Virus record (IMG/VR): IMGVR_UViG_2778261395_000005
From: a virus
Lineage: Duplodnaviria > Heunggongvirae > Uroviricota > Caudoviricetes
Strand: one strand, 5' to 3'
Length of the DNA stretch: 14,003 bases
The notes beneath the pieces are model-generated. The model was not told where the DNA came from and searched no databases. It saw only the letters and a program-made list of their open reading frames with translations. Shown piece by piece: positions 1,331 through 13,436 of this stretch; the stretch's first letter is position 1; each line of letters starts with the position of its first letter. The position numbers were made by a program, and so were the translations under genes.

Positions 1331-1345
1331 GCTTTTTTATACTAA
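1331..1345. repeat. attL core (15 bp GCTTTTTTATACTAA), left copy of the att direct repeat
   Basis: Exact 15-mer repeated at 13422-13436; left flank GTTGAAGCCT matches the host B arm and right flank GTTGGCATTATAAAAAAGCATTGCTTATCAA matches the lambda P' arm as recalled. Confidence 0.9.
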
Positions 1346-1420
1346 GTTGGCATTATAAAAAAGCATTGCTTATCAATTTGTTGCAACGAACAGGTCACTA
1401 TCAGTCAAAATAAAATCATT
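1346..1420. promoter_or_regulatory. attL P' arm with Int arm-type and IHF binding region
   Basis: Sequence …CAGGTCACTATCAGTCAAAATAAAATCATT… contains the tandem arm-type repeats (P'1-P'3 as recalled for lambda attP); it overlaps the int stop codon at 1419-1421. Confidence 0.75.
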
Positions 1421-2489
1421 ATTTGATTTCAATTTTGTCCCACTCCCTGCCTCTGTCATCACGATACTGTGATGCCATGGTGTCCGACTTATGCCCGAGA
1501 AGATGTTGAGCAAACTTATCGCTTATCTGCTTCTCATAGAGTCTTGCAGACAAACTGCGCAACTCGTGAAAGGTAGGCGGATCCCCTTCGAAGGAAAGAC
1601 CTGATGCTTTTCGTGCGCGCATAAAATACCTTGATACTGTGCCGGATGAAAGCGGTTCACGACGAGTAGATGCAATTATGGTTTCTCCGCCAAGAATCTC
1701 TTTGCATTTATCAAGTGTTTCCTTCATTGATATCCCGAGAGCATCAACATGCAATGTTGTTGGGATGGCAATTTTTACGCCTGTTTTGCTTTGCTCGACA
1801 TAAAGATATCCATCTACGATATCAGACCACTTCATTTCGCATAAATCACCAACTCGTTGCCCGGTAACAACAGCCAGTTCCATTGCAAGTCTGAGCCAAC
1901 ATGGTGATGATTCTGCTGCTTGATAAATTTTCAGGTATTCGTCAGCCGTAAGTCTTGATCTCCTTACCTCTGATTTTGCTGCGCGAGTGGCAGCGACAGG
2001 GTTTGTTGTTATATGGCCTTCAGCTATTGCCTCTCGGAATGCATCGCTCAGTGTTGATCTGATTAACTTGGCTGACGCCGCCTTGCCCTCGTCTATGTAT
2101 CCATTGAGCATTGCCGCAATTTCTTTTGTGGTGATGTCTTCAAGTGGAGCATCAGGCAGCCCCCTCCTTATTGCTTTAATTTTGCTCATGTAATTTATGA
2201 GTGTCTTCTGCTTGATTCCTCTGCTGGCCAGGATTTTTTCGTAGCGATCAAGCCATGAATGTAGCGTAACGGAATTATCACTGTTGATTCTCGCTGTCAG
2301 AGGCTTGTGTTTGTGTCCTGAAAATAACTCAATGTTGGCCTGTATGGCTTCAGTGATTGCGATTCGCCTGTCTCTGCCTAATCCAAACTCTTTACCCGTC
2401 CTTGGGTCCCTGTAGCAGTAATATCCATTGTTTCTTATATAAAGGTTAGGGGGTAAATCCCGGCGCTCATGACTTCGCCTTCTTCCCAT
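1419..2489 (-). CDS. int: Lambda-type tyrosine integrase Int, 356 aa
   Basis: Translation (MGRRRSHERRDLPPNLYIRNNGYYCYRDPRTGKEF…HLLGHKSDTMASQYRDDRGREWDKIEIK) matches phage lambda Int as recalled, including the C-terminal catalytic region; adjacent to the att core and P' arm. Confidence 0.96.
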   Translation of the reverse strand: MGRRRSHERRDLPPNLYIRNNGYYCYRDPRTGKEFGLGRDRRIAITEAIQANIELFSGHKHKPLTARINSDNSVTLHSWLDRYEKILASRGIKQKTLINYMSKIKAIRRGLPDAPLEDITTKEIAAMLNGYIDEGKAASAKLIRSTLSDAFREAIAEGHITTNPVAATRAAKSEVRRSRLTADEYLKIYQAAESSPCWLRLAMELAVVTGQRVGDLCEMKWSDIVDGYLYVEQSKTGVKIAIPTTLHVDALGISMKETLDKCKEILGGETIIASTRREPLSSGTVSRYFMRARKASGLSFEGDPPTFHELRSLSARLYEKQISDKFAQHLLGHKSDTMASQYRDDRGREWDKIEIK

Positions 2490-2685
2490 TTCTGATCCTC
2501 TTCAAAAGGCTACCTGTTACTGGTCGATTTAAGTCAACCTTTACCGCTGATTCGTGGAACAGATATTCTCTTCCATCCTTAACCGGAGGAGGGAATATCC
2601 TGCATTCGCGCACCCATCGACGAACTGTTTCAAGGCTTCTTGGGCGTCGCTGGCGAGCGTTCCACTCCTGAAGTGTCAAGTACAT
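2467..2685 (-). CDS. xis: Lambda-type excisionase Xis, 72 aa
   Basis: Translation MYLTLQEWNARQRRPRSLETVRRWVRECRIFPPPVKDGREYLFHESAVKVDLNRPVTGSLLKRIRNGKKAKS matches lambda Xis as recalled; 3' end overlaps the int start by 23 nt as in lambda. Confidence 0.95.
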   Translation of the reverse strand: MYLTLQEWNARQRRPRSLETVRRWVRECRIFPPPVKDGREYLFHESAVKVDLNRPVTGSLLKRIRNGKKAKS

Positions 2686-2724
2686 CGCAAAGTCTCCGCA
2701 ATTACACGCAAGAAAAAACCGCCA

Positions 2725-2892
2725 TCAGGCGGATTGGTGTTCTTTCAGTTCTTCAATTCGAATATTGGTTATGTCTGCATGTGCTATCTGCGCCCATATC
2801 ATCCAGTGGTCGTAGCAGTCGTTGATGTTCTCCGCTTCGATAACTCTGTTGAATGGTTCTCCATTCCATTCACCTGTGACTCGGAAGTGCAT
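2725..2892 (-). CDS. Small hypothetical protein, 55 aa (MHFRVTGEWNGEPFNRVIEAENINDCYDHWMIWAQIAHADITNIRIEELKEHQSA)
   Basis: Not in the supplied ORF track (below its size cut-off); found by reading the minus strand. ATG at 2892-2890 preceded by GGAGA (2903-2899) with a 6-nt spacer; occupies the position just upstream of xis where lambda has a ~55-codon ORF. Confidence 0.5.
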   Translation of the reverse strand: MHFRVTGEWNGEPFNRVIEAENINDCYDHWMIWAQIAHADITNIRIEELKEHQSA

Positions 2893-2903
2893 TTATCATC
2901 TCC

Positions 2904-2930
2904 ATAAAACAAAACTCGCCGTAGCGAGTT
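2904..2930 (-). terminator. Putative intrinsic terminator downstream of the ASCH-like ORF
   Basis: 7-bp stem AACTCGC / GCGAGTT (2913-2919 and 2924-2930) with 4-nt loop, followed on the minus strand by TTGTTTTAT. Confidence 0.45.
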
Positions 2931-2964
2931 CAGATAAAAGAAATCCCCGCGAGTGCGAGGATTG

Positions 2965-11560: not shown

Positions 11561-11562
11561 AT

Positions 11563-11584
11563 AGTGCCGGGGTATCCCGGCACT
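11563..11584. terminator. Hairpin AGTGCCGGG-GTAT-CCCGGCACT, candidate bidirectional terminator
   Basis: Perfect 9-bp GC-rich stem between the convergent stops at 11560 and 11598; moderately T/A-rich flanks on both sides. Confidence 0.5.
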
Positions 11585-11597
11585 AACTTTGTCATTA

Positions 11598-12743
11598 TCA
11601 CGCTGTTATTTCGGTTTCTTTTTTGTTAATGCTCTTATTTCTCTTGTCAATTAAACGTTTACCTATATTTATCATTGGCTTTTCAATGAGAATATATATT
11701 GGATATGATGCAGTTATTGAGATAATAACCAAGGAAAAAAACACAGAAAATCCACCAGTTATGCCAATTTCAGCAAGGTCTGCCTTATAATAGAAGAACA
11801 AAGCAAGTATCACGGCGTGAATTAGATATAAAGAATATGATATTTCACCAAGGAAATTAAATATTTTTATTTTTGGTGTTATATTGCAGTATTCATATAC
11901 TAATGATGATGCAATAAGTATCATCGCCATAGTCCCAAATCCATTCAATCCATGCCCATAAGGTCGCTGGATAATGAATAATATTATGGATATACCACAT
12001 GAAATCCATAGTATTTGAAGCGAATACTTTGAAAGTATCCTTTTAATACTTTTGCTTTCGTTGATGTTTGTAAATATTTCAGAAAGAAACATCCCAATAA
12101 CGAATTCATACATCATTGGAGATGTAATAACATTTGTATATCCTAATAACCAGTTATCTGTAAATAACCCTGCACTAACATCACCTGAAAATGATATATT
12201 TCCATTTACATAGTATTGTGTAAATGAGACCACCATGATTATAAAAACAGAACAGATAATTGTTCTGTATTTATGCGAAATAGACATTGATACCCCGAAA
12301 AAAACATAGAAACCAATTTCATATGTTATCGTCCAGGCCGGGTACAAAAGATTATAGGCAAAGAATGGAGCGCCTTCATTCCAGTTTATATTTAATGGAA
12401 TGATGGAAATAAGTAAGGTTCTAAAGTTTTCAACTGTAGCATAGGTTAGAAATTGAGTGTTTATTATGTAATACATGCAACAGCATGTGATTAGTAATGG
12501 GTATATTCTAAATATTCTTCTAATTGAGAATGAGAAAGTATCATTAACTTCCTTCTTTCTTGTTGAGTATACGATGATAAATCCACTTAATATGAAGAAT
12601 ATATCAACTCCAGACAGCCCATTCCCAAATAATAGGTCACCCAAATCTTTCTGAGAGTAGTGCTCATTTAGCAAGAATCTGAAGTGGAATAAAACAACAA
12701 GTAATGATGCTATTCCTCTAATATATTGTAATGATAATATCAT
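11598..12743 (-). CDS. Second family-3 membrane acyltransferase, 381 aa from the first ATG (track ORF extends to a TTG at 12773)
   Basis: AT3 motifs: LQYIRGIASLLVVLFHF (R…H), GVDIFFILSGF, and FLGEISYSLYLIH; multi-pass hydrophobic; AT-rich; clearly different in sequence from the first acyltransferase. Confidence 0.85.
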   Translation of the reverse strand: MILSLQYIRGIASLLVVLFHFRFLLNEHYSQKDLGDLLFGNGLSGVDIFFILSGFIIVYSTRKKEVNDTFSFSIRRIFRIYPLLITCCCMYYIINTQFLTYATVENFRTLLISIIPLNINWNEGAPFFAYNLLYPAWTITYEIGFYVFFGVSMSISHKYRTIICSVFIIMVVSFTQYYVNGNISFSGDVSAGLFTDNWLLGYTNVITSPMMYEFVIGMFLSEIFTNINESKSIKRILSKYSLQILWISCGISIILFIIQRPYGHGLNGFGTMAMILIASSLVYEYCNITPKIKIFNFLGEISYSLYLIHAVILALFFYYKADLAEIGITGGFSVFFSLVIISITASYPIYILIEKPMINIGKRLIDKRNKSINKKETEITA

Positions 12744-13234
12744 ATGATTTGCTTGGATATAATTTGTTAGCAAATATTATGTTGAACTATTTAAATCATT
12801 AAACAGAAACAACGCCACGTTATATTAGAATGCAATATGGCATACTTTCGCTAAAAATACAAAGAGATAGAAGAAACAAAACACTTGAGAGGTAAAAATA
12901 ATCAAAAATTACAAGTGCGTTATAATTTCATGGAAGTAATTCAAATAATTGATAGACAAAACCTATTATTTTGGCGATAATGTAGACATGGATAAGCAAA
13001 AGATACCAATGCAGAACATTAGCATGTGACTTTGTATTCTGAATTGATGATACGCAAAATAAAACTTTTGCTAATTCTCAATATCTTATTCACAAAATTG
13101 TGCATATCTCTTAGGTTGGATATGAGGATTACAGCACACTTTCATCAAGCCAGTCCGCCCACCACTGCATCATCTCCCTGCGCTTATCGAGATACTGAGC
13201 ATGGTTGTAAATTCAACTAACCCAGTGAGTTGAC

Positions 13235-13275
13235 AAAAAATTAGCGCAAGAGGACAAAAAATCACCTTGCGCTAA
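13235..13275 (-). terminator. Lambda tI/sib-like intrinsic terminator in the attR P-arm flank
   Basis: On the minus strand: ATTAGCGCAAG-(loop)-CTTGCGCTAA followed by TTTTTT, i.e. 10-bp stem (13241-13250 / 13266-13275) and U-tract (13235-13240); matches the lambda tI region as recalled. Confidence 0.6.
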
Positions 13276-13279
13276 TGCT

Positions 13280-13421
13280 CTGTTACAGGTCACTAATATC
13301 ATCTAAGTAGTTGATTCATAGTGACTGCATATGTTGTGTTTTACAGTATTTTGTAGTCTGTTTTTTATGCAAAATCTAATTTAATATATTGATATTTATA
13401 TCATTTTACGTTTCTCGTTCA
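13280..13421. promoter_or_regulatory. attR P arm with Int arm-type, Xis, Fis and IHF site region
   Basis: Sequence TCTGTTACAGGTCACTAATA…AGTAGTTGATTCATAGTGACTGCATATGTTGTGTTTTACAG…CGTTTCTCGTTCA matches the lambda attP P arm as recalled. Confidence 0.8.
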
Positions 13422-13436
13422 GCTTTTTTATACTAA
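13422..13436. repeat. attR core (15 bp GCTTTTTTATACTAA), right copy of the att direct repeat
   Basis: Exact repeat of 1331-1345; followed by a host B'-like arm (TTTGAGCGAAACGGGAAGG). Confidence 0.9.

What the first reader, a model, noticed from the sequence alone, without database searches (positions are those of the whole stretch)
1331..13436. Gutted prophage that keeps a complete lambda site-specific recombination module
Both att cores, both arm regions, int and xis appear intact, while repressor, N/Q antitermination, replication, lysis-enzyme, capsid and tail-shaft genes are absent. The element may therefore still be able to excise as a ~12 kb circle if int and xis are expressed, carrying the moron and acyltransferase cargo, yet it cannot replicate or package itself. 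The native pL promoter is missing, so what drives int/xis is unknown.
Basis: partly seen in the sequence, partly recalled or inferred. Interest (0 to 1): 0.5.

Follow-up and report, generated by a model that had tools for sequence, protein, structure and literature searches.

The report
Known E. coli B cryptic prophage
This is the already-described 12.1-kb "lambda-B" prophage remnant of E. coli B, which keeps a sequence-intact lambda-type integrase, excisionase and attachment sites and appears removable when another phage supplies the missing signals, an ordinary property of decayed prophages.

Summary
Exact 15-bp lambda att cores sit at 1331-1345 and 13422-13436, bracketing 12,091 bp between ybhC and ybhB. 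The P' arm is identical to lambda. Int and Xis are full length and identical to those of the viable phage HK106. The P arm differs from lambda at two positions (-130 and -78, the latter in X1). A 42-kb full-length relative in strain NRZ14408 has both changes, so they are lineage alleles, not decay.

The element is the published "lambda-B" prophage of the B lineage. It is a double-deletion derivative of a lambdoid prophage, not of lambda itself.

Two genome comparisons suggest it can be removed precisely.
- BL21(DE3) has lost it. DE3 sits in the same site, with the crossover mapped between -78 and +8.
- Wild strain GF4 has an empty attB identical to the predicted excision product, including a lineage-specific T at +8. 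It shares two derived ybhH SNPs with four carriers only.

GF4 has also gained a P22-like prophage encoding the identical Xis.

In the window, xis lies behind three terminator-like hairpins. pL, N and cII are absent. Excision therefore probably needs a helper. The finding is real but ordinary and already known.

The parts
1331..1345 (+). attL common core (B-O-P' junction)
   Evidence: Exact match to GCTTTTTTATACTAA. The B side is identical to K-12 attB.
1346..1440 (+). P' arm. I assigned the sites from remembered lambda site sequences: H' about 1370-1386, P'1 1392-1401, P'2 1402-1411, P'3 1413-1422.
   Evidence: 100% identical to lambda 27739 onward. Sequence read.
1419..2489 (-). int, lambda-family tyrosine integrase, 356 aa
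   Evidence: 353/356 identical to lambda Int with all catalytic residues kept. 100% identical to the Int of HK106, Huey, 2B8 and JEP4. H164P lies in the I160-R176 interdomain linker (PMC7736782).
2467..2685 (-). xis, excisionase, 72 aa
   Evidence: 71/72 identical to lambda Xis (G59S). 100% identical to HK106 Xis. Same RefSeq protein (WP_001303849.1) as in NRZ14408 and in the torS/torT prophage of GF4.
2698..2711 (-). cII box TTGC-N6-TTGC of the int promoter pI, just upstream of the xis ATG
   Evidence: Sequence read. Identical to lambda here. The function is taken from lambda and from the annotation of phage 434.
2719..2732 (-). Hairpin CCGCC-TGAT-GGCGG followed by T6, terminator-like, between orf55 and xis
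   Evidence: The corresponding site is annotated as a terminator in phage 434.
2912..2963 (-). Two more terminator-like hairpins upstream of orf55 (2963-2942 and 2931-2912)
   Evidence: They lie within the stretch that aligns with lambda.
2725..2892 (-). orf55, homologue of lambdap35, function unknown
   Evidence: 53/55 identical to lambda.
2965..3708 (-). Early-left remnant: a phrog_625 gene (annotated ASCH), a DUF4752 gene and a 3' fragment of a DUF551 gene. It ends at the first deletion joint.
   Evidence: NRZ14408 has a full-length DUF551 gene.
3711..4221 (+). Rz1-like (LysC) ORF and a small phrog_12811 ORF. This is the far side of the first deletion joint.
4354..4902 (-). 182-aa gene of unknown function (phrog_30882), on the same strand as xis and int
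   Evidence: It is also present in the vB_EcoM-606R2 group of phages.
4922..7098 (+). Intact terminase small (4922-5473) and large (5476-7098) subunit genes
   Evidence: Pfam Terminase_2, E 6e-40. phrog_2 terminase large subunit. Same proteins as in NRZ14408.
7098..7859 (+). N-terminal fragment of the portal gene. It ends at the second deletion joint, at about 7851.
   Evidence: Pfam Phage_portal_3, profile positions 6-207 of 357. Alignment to the full-length NRZ14408 portal stops at about 7851.
7882..8763 (+). C-terminal fragment of a tail-fibre gene, frameshifted in this window by a G8 run, followed by the tail-fibre assembly gene
8805..9830 (-). Acyl_transf_3 O-acetyltransferase-like gene in low-GC cargo
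   Evidence: Pfam E 4e-27. phrog_3333. GC 0.31-0.34.
10019..10129 (+). Remnant of a pin-type DNA invertase gene
   Evidence: About 86% identical to pinE of e14. Annotated as a pseudogene.
10223..11560 (+). 445-aa ORF with no family match. Its counterpart in a related prophage is annotated as a phage head-binding (tailspike) domain protein.
   Evidence: (H181).
11598..12773 (-). Second Acyl_transf_3 O-acetyltransferase-like gene
   Evidence: Pfam E 1e-30. phrog_3333 E 3e-72.
13098..13230 (-). 3' remnant of an intS-type integrase gene from a different phage
   Evidence: Matches intS at 91-98% in many genomes. Annotated as a pseudogene.
13231..13421 (+). Lambda sib/tI hairpin and P arm (P1 13287-13296, P2 13318-13327, X1-X2-F-H2 about 13350-13415; site assignments from remembered lambda sequences). 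Differences from lambda lie at 13252, one extra A in 13256-13261, 13299 (-130) and 13351 (-78).
   Evidence: Matches the NRZ14408 attR P arm except for a 1-bp deletion there; both substitutions are shared.
13422..13436 (+). attR common core (P-O-B' junction). The next base, 13437 (+8 of B'), is T where K-12 has C.

Best explanation
This is the cryptic prophage known as lambda-B, found in E. coli B and its wild relatives. A roughly 42-kb mosaic lambdoid phage integrated at the lambda attB site between ybhC and ybhB. It had a lambda/HK106-type int-xis-att module, contractile-tail structural genes and an O-acetyltransferase cargo.

Two internal deletions then removed most of it. One runs from the DUF551 gene to Rz and took out recombination, immunity, replication, nin, Q, holin and endolysin genes. 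The other runs from mid-portal to the end of the tail-fibre gene and took out head and tail genes. They left 12.1 kb.

The recombination module survived because it sits at the prophage ends, and too little time has passed for it to decay. The att sites and the Int and Xis proteins are competent. With Int and Xis present, attL x attR recombination would release a 12,091-bp non-replicating circle and restore attB.

The element has lost everything that normally switches these genes on. pL, N and nutL for xis are absent. cII for the int promoter pI is absent. xis lies behind three terminator-like hairpins. I therefore think excision is rare on its own and happens mainly when an infecting or co-resident lambdoid phage supplies Xis, plus Int or cII, in trans.

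Shown here: the anatomy, the sequence intactness, the deletion origin, and the two genomes where the element is precisely absent. Inferred: that these losses were Int/Xis-mediated, and that the trigger was a helper phage.
For: The element is published as the 12.1-kb lambda-B prophage, present in BL21 and REL606 and common to the B lineage (PMC4395058; PMC3032704 Table 2).

A full-length relative sits at the same site in NRZ14408. It has the same Int, Xis, terS, terL, tfa, second acyltransferase and P-arm substitutions, plus cI-type repressor, cro, cII, replication O/P, Q, holin, lysozyme, head and baseplate genes.

Int and Xis are identical to those of the isolated phage HK106.

In BL21(DE3) the element is gone and DE3 occupies the site. 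The DE3 attR carries all four lambda-type P-arm markers, including -78A, but the B-lineage T at +8. The crossover therefore lies in the 85 bp around the core. DE3 lysogens are made with a helper phage.

GF4 evidence:
- Its empty site matches the predicted excision product at 400/400 bases. It is the only 100% match among 5,426 genomes.
- 7,912 of 7,912 flanking bases are identical to REL606.
- Two derived ybhH SNPs (Q28H, P202S) are ancestral in K-12 and REL606. Across the 5,426 genomes they occur only in four lambda-B carriers and GF4.
- GF4 has no other lambda-B P-arm copy.
- GF4 has gained a P22-like prophage at torS/torT with the identical Xis protein and a cII gene. That site is empty in its sister carrier Ec-RL2-1X and in REL606.

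Against: No experiment was run. No excision junction or transcript was seen.

The A>T change at -78 lies in X1. That A is conserved in lambda, HK106, 434 and HK97. No isolated phage in the collection has this P arm. Occupancy of X1 is described as critical for recruiting Int to P2 (PMC7145599).

The placement of GF4 inside the carrier clade rests on two linked SNPs 6.4 kb from attL plus the +8 allele, not on a genome-wide tree. A second locus gave no polarised support.

The element is retained in every non-DE3 B-lineage genome among the matches listed. Excision is therefore at best rare.

The promoter and terminator scans are consensus matches only.
Confidence: 0.75

Rival explanations
1. Autonomous excision. 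The element expresses enough of its own Int and Xis to excise spontaneously at a low but real rate, without any helper phage. Expression would come from basal pI activity and read-through from the minus-strand genes upstream.
For: No repressor gene is left to silence upstream transcription. A minus-strand gene at 4354-4902 has no terminator-like site after it and points towards xis. Int and Xis are intact. E. coli B lacks Lon, which degrades Xis in lambda (my own recollection, not checked here).
Against: Three terminator-like hairpins lie between any upstream promoter and xis, and the N/nut antitermination system is gone. pI depends on cII in lambda, and the element has no cII gene. The element is retained in all the non-DE3 B genomes listed. 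Both observed losses coincide with the arrival of another lambdoid phage.
Confidence: 0.15
2. Grounded relic. The module looks intact only because too little time has passed for it to decay, and it no longer recombines, for example because -78T cripples X1. On this view the GF4 lineage was never lysogenised, and DE3 replaced lambda-B by homologous recombination in the shared arm and int sequences.
For: Identity to the full-length NRZ14408 copy is 99.8% over the cargo. On my estimate that leaves too little divergence for an inactivating mutation in int or xis to be expected. The -78 allele is unknown in isolated phages. The full-length NRZ14408 relative itself has frameshifted genes and a broken tail-fibre gene.
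Against: A homologous exchange would need a crossover inside the 85 bp between -78 and +8. If GF4 was never lysogenised, the same doubly deleted element must have entered two ybhH backgrounds independently, or the ybhH allele must have moved by recombination. Xis binds with low sequence specificity (PMC7145599). Functional phages vary widely across X1-X2.
Confidence: 0.08
3. Phage satellite. This is a PICI- or P4-like element shaped by selection to excise and be packaged by a helper, keeping terS and terL for that purpose.
For: The element is about 12 kb, has int-xis at one end, and carries intact terS and terL.
Against: Both internal joints cut genes: the DUF551, portal and tail-fibre genes are fragments. 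No replication or regulatory module was found. terS and terL are the same proteins as in the full-length prophage. The gene order is simply that of the parent minus two blocks.
Confidence: 0.02

Closest known systems
Lambda-B (lambda*B) defective prophage of E. coli B, as reported for REL606 and BL21 (PMC4395058; PMC3032704 Table 2). These papers cite Jeong et al. 2009 and Studier et al. 2009 in J Mol Biol, which I could not read.
   Same: It is the same element. It is 12.1 kb, lies at ybhC-ybhB, and matches REL606 over the full length apart from two positions.
   Different: None in kind. This window has one extra G at 8181-8188 and T at 11874. The texts I could read do not discuss whether the element can excise.
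Bacteriophage lambda int-xis-attP module, and its HK106/HK97/434 alleles
   Same: Same core, identical P' arm, same arm-type and IHF site sequences, and Int and Xis 99% identical to lambda and 100% identical to HK106. Same chromosomal site.
   Different: The P arm has -130T and -78T. The regulators that act on the module in lambda (pL, N, nutL, cII) are missing. Everything beyond orf55 and beyond sib is unrelated to lambda.
Excision-proficient cryptic prophages of E. coli K-12, such as Rac (PMC4632033) and KplE1/CPS-53 (PMC2951348). e14 and CP4-57 are further examples, from my own recollection.
   Same: These are decayed prophages that cannot form particles but keep integrase, a directionality factor and att sites, and can still leave the chromosome.
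   Different: Excision of those elements has been measured. Here it is only inferred from genome comparisons, and it appears to need functions supplied in trans.
Full-length prophage of E. coli NRZ14408 at attB-lambda (NZ_CP158426.1, about 3,586,600-3,628,900)
   Same: Same Int, Xis, terS, terL, tfa and P-arm substitutions. The right-end cargo is 99.8% identical. Same insertion site.
   Different: It is about 42 kb and has immunity, replication, lysis, head and contractile-tail genes. The region between Rz and terS differs. It has C rather than T at +8 and a 1-bp deletion in the P arm.

Membership tests
Lambda-type Int/Xis site-specific recombination module | Identical 15-bp common core as direct repeats at both prophage ends, at the ybhC-ybhB attB | tested here: met
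   (two exact copies, none of 200 shuffles gave two). Flanking genes.
Lambda-type Int/Xis site-specific recombination module | Heterobivalent tyrosine integrase with catalytic R212, K235, H308, R311, H333 and Y342 | tested here: met
   (all residues present). (identical to the Int of isolated phages).
Lambda-type Int/Xis site-specific recombination module | Arm-type Int sites P1, P2, P'1-P'3 and IHF sites H1, H2, H' in lambda register | tested here: met
   The P' arm is identical to lambda. The P1, P2, H1-core and H2 sequences are identical to lambda. The -130 change falls between P1 and H1.
Lambda-type Int/Xis site-specific recombination module | Xis protein with its X1-X1.5-X2/Fis binding region | tested here: inconclusive
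   Xis is intact and identical to HK106 Xis. X1.5, X2 and F match lambda, but X1 has A>T at -78, a base conserved in four functional phages. No binding data exist for this allele.
Lambda-type Int/Xis site-specific recombination module | Actual attL x attR recombination restoring attB | not testable with these tools
   Indirect evidence only: replacement in BL21(DE3) with the crossover mapped between -78 and +8, and the empty site in GF4.
Lambda-type Int/Xis site-specific recombination module | Resident control of int and xis through pL, N and nutL, and cII acting at pI | tested here: not met
   The pI cII box is present. No cII, N or cI gene was found, and lambda homology ends at 2968.
Defective (cryptic) prophage | Phage-derived, flanked by att sites, lacking modules essential for lytic growth, with genes truncated at deletion joints | tested here: met
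.
Phage satellite (PICI / P4-like) | Own replication module and helper-sensing regulator | tested here: not met
   No primase, replicase, AlpA or repressor family was found by Pfam, PHROG or NCBIfam.
Phage satellite (PICI / P4-like) | Dedicated packaging-hijack genes distinct from those of a complete phage | tested here: not met
   terS and terL are the same proteins as in the full-length NRZ14408 prophage.

The most novel reading that the evidence does not exclude
A cryptic prophage that has lost all control of its own int and xis is evicted when an unrelated temperate phage with a different integration site arrives carrying the same Xis. In GF4 this would be a P22-like phage at torS/torT. 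The newcomer would supply Xis and cII, and the remnant would supply the lambda-specific Int. Cross-talk between directionality factors would then be a general route by which new phages clear old prophage remnants and free attachment sites.
Probability: 0.3. Interest if true: 0.5.

Novelty: already known. Interest (0 to 1): 0.25.

Why it matters
The element sits in the most widely used protein-production and experimental-evolution strains (BL21, REL606, NEB Express).

There are practical consequences if it can be excised in trans. Lambda-based tools used in B strains could delete it or recombine with it. These include DE3 lysogenisation, lambda-att integration vectors, and Int/Xis cassettes. 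Strains labelled BL21 and BL21(DE3) do differ at this locus.

Biologically it adds one more example of a decayed prophage that keeps a usable recombination module. It also hints that incoming phages can clear such remnants. Neither point changes current understanding.

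Tried and rejected
- **Key papers.** I looked for the primary descriptions (Studier 2009 and Jeong 2009 in J Mol Biol), the Xis-DNA structure papers (PMC1893000, PMC1852488) and Landy's review (PMC5710010). None is held. The effect of the -78 change on X1 could not be settled from the literature.
- **Excision reports.** Searches for reports of excision of this element in REL606 or LTEE lines found nothing specific.
- **Identical P arm.** No isolated phage has an identical P arm. The best match is lambda at 98.1%.
- **RNA features.** Rfam and tRNA scans of the window were empty.
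- **Unknown proteins.** NCBIfam added nothing for the 182-aa, 445-aa and acyltransferase proteins.
- **Right flank as marker.** The 18-kb right flank proved too conserved for phylogeny. ATCC 8739 is identical apart from the first query base, +8.
- **Second locus.** The tor-gfc-yccA locus confirms that GF4, Ec-RL2-1X and REL606 are close relatives. The gfcC and yccA differences could not be polarised, so they neither support nor contradict the nesting of GF4.
- **Satellite reading.** Considered and rejected; see the rival explanations.
- **Technical limit.** Only the first newly fetched locus reached the scripting machine after each script call. Lambda, 434, HK97 and NRZ14408 were therefore compared through the alignment tool instead.

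Full report
**What the window is.** The 14,003-base window matches complete E. coli B-lineage genomes (REL606, BL21, NEB Express, ATCC 11303 and others) over its full length. It differs from REL606 at only two positions: an extra G in the run ending at 8188, and T for G at 11874. The RefSeq annotation runs ybhC, integrase, excisionase, a series of phage genes and pseudogenes, two acyltransferases, ybhB and bioA. This is the classical lambda attachment site between gal and bio.

**Checking the observation.** The 15-bp lambda common core GCTTTTTTATACTAA occurs exactly twice, at 1331-1345 and 13422-13436, in direct orientation. Shuffles give a mean of 0.04 matches, and none of 200 gave two. Recombination between the two copies would release 12,091 bp.

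I fetched lambda (NC_001416) and aligned it. From the attL core through int, xis and orf55 the window follows lambda 27724-29361, and the similarity then stops abruptly at window 2968. The first 328 bases are identical, which covers the whole P' arm.

- **Int.** It is 356 aa and 353/356 identical to lambda Int (H164P, A245T, I248V). The catalytic R212, K235, H308, R311, H333 and Y342 are all in place. H164 lies in the flexible I160-R176 linker (PMC7736782).
- **Xis.** It differs from lambda Xis by G59S.
- **Natural alleles.** Int is 100% identical to the Int of the isolated temperate phages HK106, Huey, 2B8 and JEP4. Xis is 100% identical to HK106 Xis. These are therefore working natural alleles, not damaged copies.
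- **P arm.** At attR, lambda similarity starts at the sib/tI hairpin (about 13231) and runs to the core. There are four differences: A>G and +A in the sib loop, C>T at 13299 (-130, between P1 and H1), and A>T at 13351 (-78, inside X1).
- **Natural variation.** The functional phages HK106, 434 and HK97 differ from lambda at many positions across X1, X2, F and H2. All four phages nevertheless keep the A at -78.

No ORF is annotated as, or matches, a repressor, N, Q, replication, holin, endolysin, capsid or tail-shaft protein (annotation; family scans).

**Where the element came from.** Only the two ends resemble lambda. The structural genes resemble the vB_EcoM-606R2 and SEN34 groups of phages.

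Strain NRZ14408 carries a prophage of about 42 kb at the same site. It shares the Int, Xis, terS, terL, tail-fibre assembly and second acyltransferase proteins with the window. In addition it has a LexA-family repressor, cro, cII, replication genes, nin genes, Q, holin, lysozyme and Rz. It also has a full portal, head genes, and sheath and baseplate genes. Its attR has the same -130T and -78T. Those two changes are therefore alleles of this phage lineage rather than post-deletion decay.

In the window the DUF551 gene, the portal gene and the tail-fibre gene are fragments that abut unrelated sequence. The element is thus a double-deletion derivative of such a phage.

The right-hand cargo is itself mosaic:
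- a tfa-acyltransferase-pin block (8760-10130);
- a tailspike-like, acyltransferase and intS-remnant block (10117-13214), also found in an argW-type prophage;
- both joined to the lambda sib and P arm.

GC content falls to 0.29-0.39 across this cargo.

The cargo is 99.8% identical to the NRZ14408 copy. On my estimate that leaves too little divergence for an inactivating mutation in int or xis to be expected. The intactness of these genes needs no special explanation. They also lie at the prophage ends, which internal deletions spare.

**It is already described.** The BL21 genome announcement states that the attB of BL21 is [quoted passage not shown]. It calls this a common characteristic of the B lineage (PMC4395058). 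The E. coli W genome paper lists lambda-B at ybhC-ybhB (PMC3032704). The element also occurs in about twenty wild isolates from poultry, pigs, humans and seawater, including an O7:H4 strain. The two I inspected, MIN14 and Ec-RL2-1X, have the same joints.

**Can it leave? First comparison: BL21(DE3).** In BL21(DE3) the element is absent, and the DE3 prophage lies between the same ybhC and ybhB. The DE3 attR carries all four lambda-type P-arm markers, including A at -78. Yet the base just outside the core, +8 of B', is the B-lineage T. The exchange that created this junction therefore fell within the 85 bp from -78 to +8. That fits recombination at the core and is hard to obtain by homologous recombination. 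The attL side is identical in both strains and carries no information. DE3 lysogens are made by co-infection with a helper phage. That the helper supplies int function is my recollection of Studier and Moffatt 1986, not something I checked here.

**Second comparison: a wild strain.** I built the predicted empty site from the window and searched 5,426 complete genomes. Of these, 3,487 have an unoccupied site. Only one, GF4 from chicken meat, matches 400/400. The next-best matches listed, including K-12, are all at 99.8% (one mismatch); in K-12 and NRZ14408 the base at +8 is C.

- GF4 is identical to REL606 over 7,912 of 7,912 flanking bases once the element is removed.
- Among the top matches, T at +8 is otherwise seen only in carriers of the element.
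- Over 37 kb of flank, GF4 and the carrier Ec-RL2-1X share two substitutions in ybhH (Q28H and P202S). REL606 and K-12 have the other, ancestral, state.
- Across all 5,426 genomes this ybhH allele occurs only in four carriers (Ec-RL2-1X, FDAARGOS_1250, 3908, G5) and in GF4.

The simplest reading is that GF4 descends from a carrier and lost the element precisely. GF4 has no other copy of the lambda-B P arm, which fits a non-replicating circle that was lost. The weakness is that this nesting rests on one linked locus. A second locus 250-320 kb away confirmed close kinship but gave no polarised sites.

**What drives int and xis.** On the minus strand, the sequence just upstream of the xis ATG contains the TTGC-N6-TTGC cII box of pI (2711-2698). 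It is identical to lambda and is preceded by a GC hairpin plus T6 (2732-2719). Two more terminator-like hairpins lie at 2963-2912.

In lambda, xis is read only from pL with N antitermination, and pI, which makes Int only, needs cII. None of pL, N, nutL or cII remains in the window. No consensus sigma-70 promoter was found upstream of xis between 2500 and 5100. The element is retained in every non-DE3 B-lineage genome among the matches listed. I conclude that resident expression of xis is negligible.

Both losses coincide with the arrival of another lambdoid phage. In BL21(DE3) this was DE3 plus helper. GF4 has gained a P22-like prophage at torS/torT, the site used by HK022-type integrases (my own knowledge). 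It has a full regulatory set including cII, and its excisionase is the very same protein, WP_001303849.1. That site is empty in Ec-RL2-1X and REL606. This suggests, but does not prove, that an incoming phage supplied Xis and perhaps cII, while the remnant's own lambda-specific Int did the cutting.

**Comparison with known systems.** In kind, this is a cryptic prophage with a retained recombination module, like Rac or KplE1 in K-12, whose excision has been measured (PMC4632033, PMC2951348). It passes the sequence tests for a lambda-type module, with two exceptions. X1 is inconclusive, and the resident control circuit is missing. It fails the tests for a phage satellite: it has no replication or sensing module, its packaging genes are those of the parent, and genes are cut at both joints.

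**Verdict.** The element and the principle are both already known. The only mildly new points are the wild empty-site strain and the possible eviction by a phage sharing the same Xis. Both need experiments and a genome-wide tree.

Noticed in passing
NZ_CP172217.1 (GF4) about 1,279,700-1,321,300; loci L016 and L017: GF4 is the one genome with a precisely empty B-type attB. It carries a complete-looking P22-like prophage between torT and torS whose excisionase (WP_001303849.1) is identical to the window's Xis. The torT/torS junction is empty in the sister carrier Ec-RL2-1X and in REL606.
   Followed up: partly
window 13437: The first base outside the attR core (+8 of the B' core-type Int site) is T. 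K-12 and NRZ14408 have C, and lambda C' has G. In the lists I saw, T occurs only in carriers of this element, in BL21(DE3) and in GF4.
   Followed up: partly
window 8181-8188 and 11874: The window has a run of eight G where REL606 and NRZ14408 have seven. This frameshifts the tail-fibre fragment. It also has T where REL606 has G inside the second acyltransferase gene. The window is therefore not identical to REL606, and every top match in the collection spans 14,002 bases against the window's 14,003.
   Followed up: partly
window 7098-7859: RefSeq labels this pseudogene 'anti-CBASS protein Acb1 family'. Pfam matches it to the N-terminal 200 positions of Phage_portal_3 (E 1e-55), and NRZ14408 has a full DUF1073 portal gene at the same place. 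The Acb1 label looks like an annotation error.
   Followed up: partly
window 10019-10129 and 13098-13230: There is a remnant of a pin-type invertase gene and a 3' remnant of an intS-type integrase gene. The latter lies directly against the lambda sib hairpin. The right end looks like a tailspike, O-acetyltransferase, attP and int module of a different phage fused to a lambda P arm.
   Followed up: partly
window 8800-13200: This is low-GC cargo (0.29-0.39) with two Acyl_transf_3 genes that resemble phage O-antigen acetylases. E. coli B makes no O antigen (my own knowledge), so they may have no substrate in the laboratory strain. An O7:H4 wild carrier (MIN14) has them too.
   Followed up: no
window 4354-4902, minus strand: A 182-aa gene of unknown function (phrog_30882) lies between the lysis remnant and terS on the opposite strand. 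It is also present in the vB_EcoM-606R2 phages but not at this position in NRZ14408. No terminator-like site follows it, so its transcript may run on towards the early-left remnant.
   Followed up: no
L008 (BL21(DE3), NC_012971.2 about 746,200-747,000): BL21(DE3) has a truncated galM directly beside ybhC. This is the known deletion of gal, mod and pgl next to the attachment site. It is absent from REL606, GF4 and the wild carriers.
   Followed up: no
MF374379.1 (Escherichia phage DN1): The P-arm search found a phage record described as carrying DE3-derived genes, an attR site and a transduced bio locus. This suggests the DE3 prophage occupying this site in BL21(DE3) can still leave it aberrantly.
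   Followed up: no
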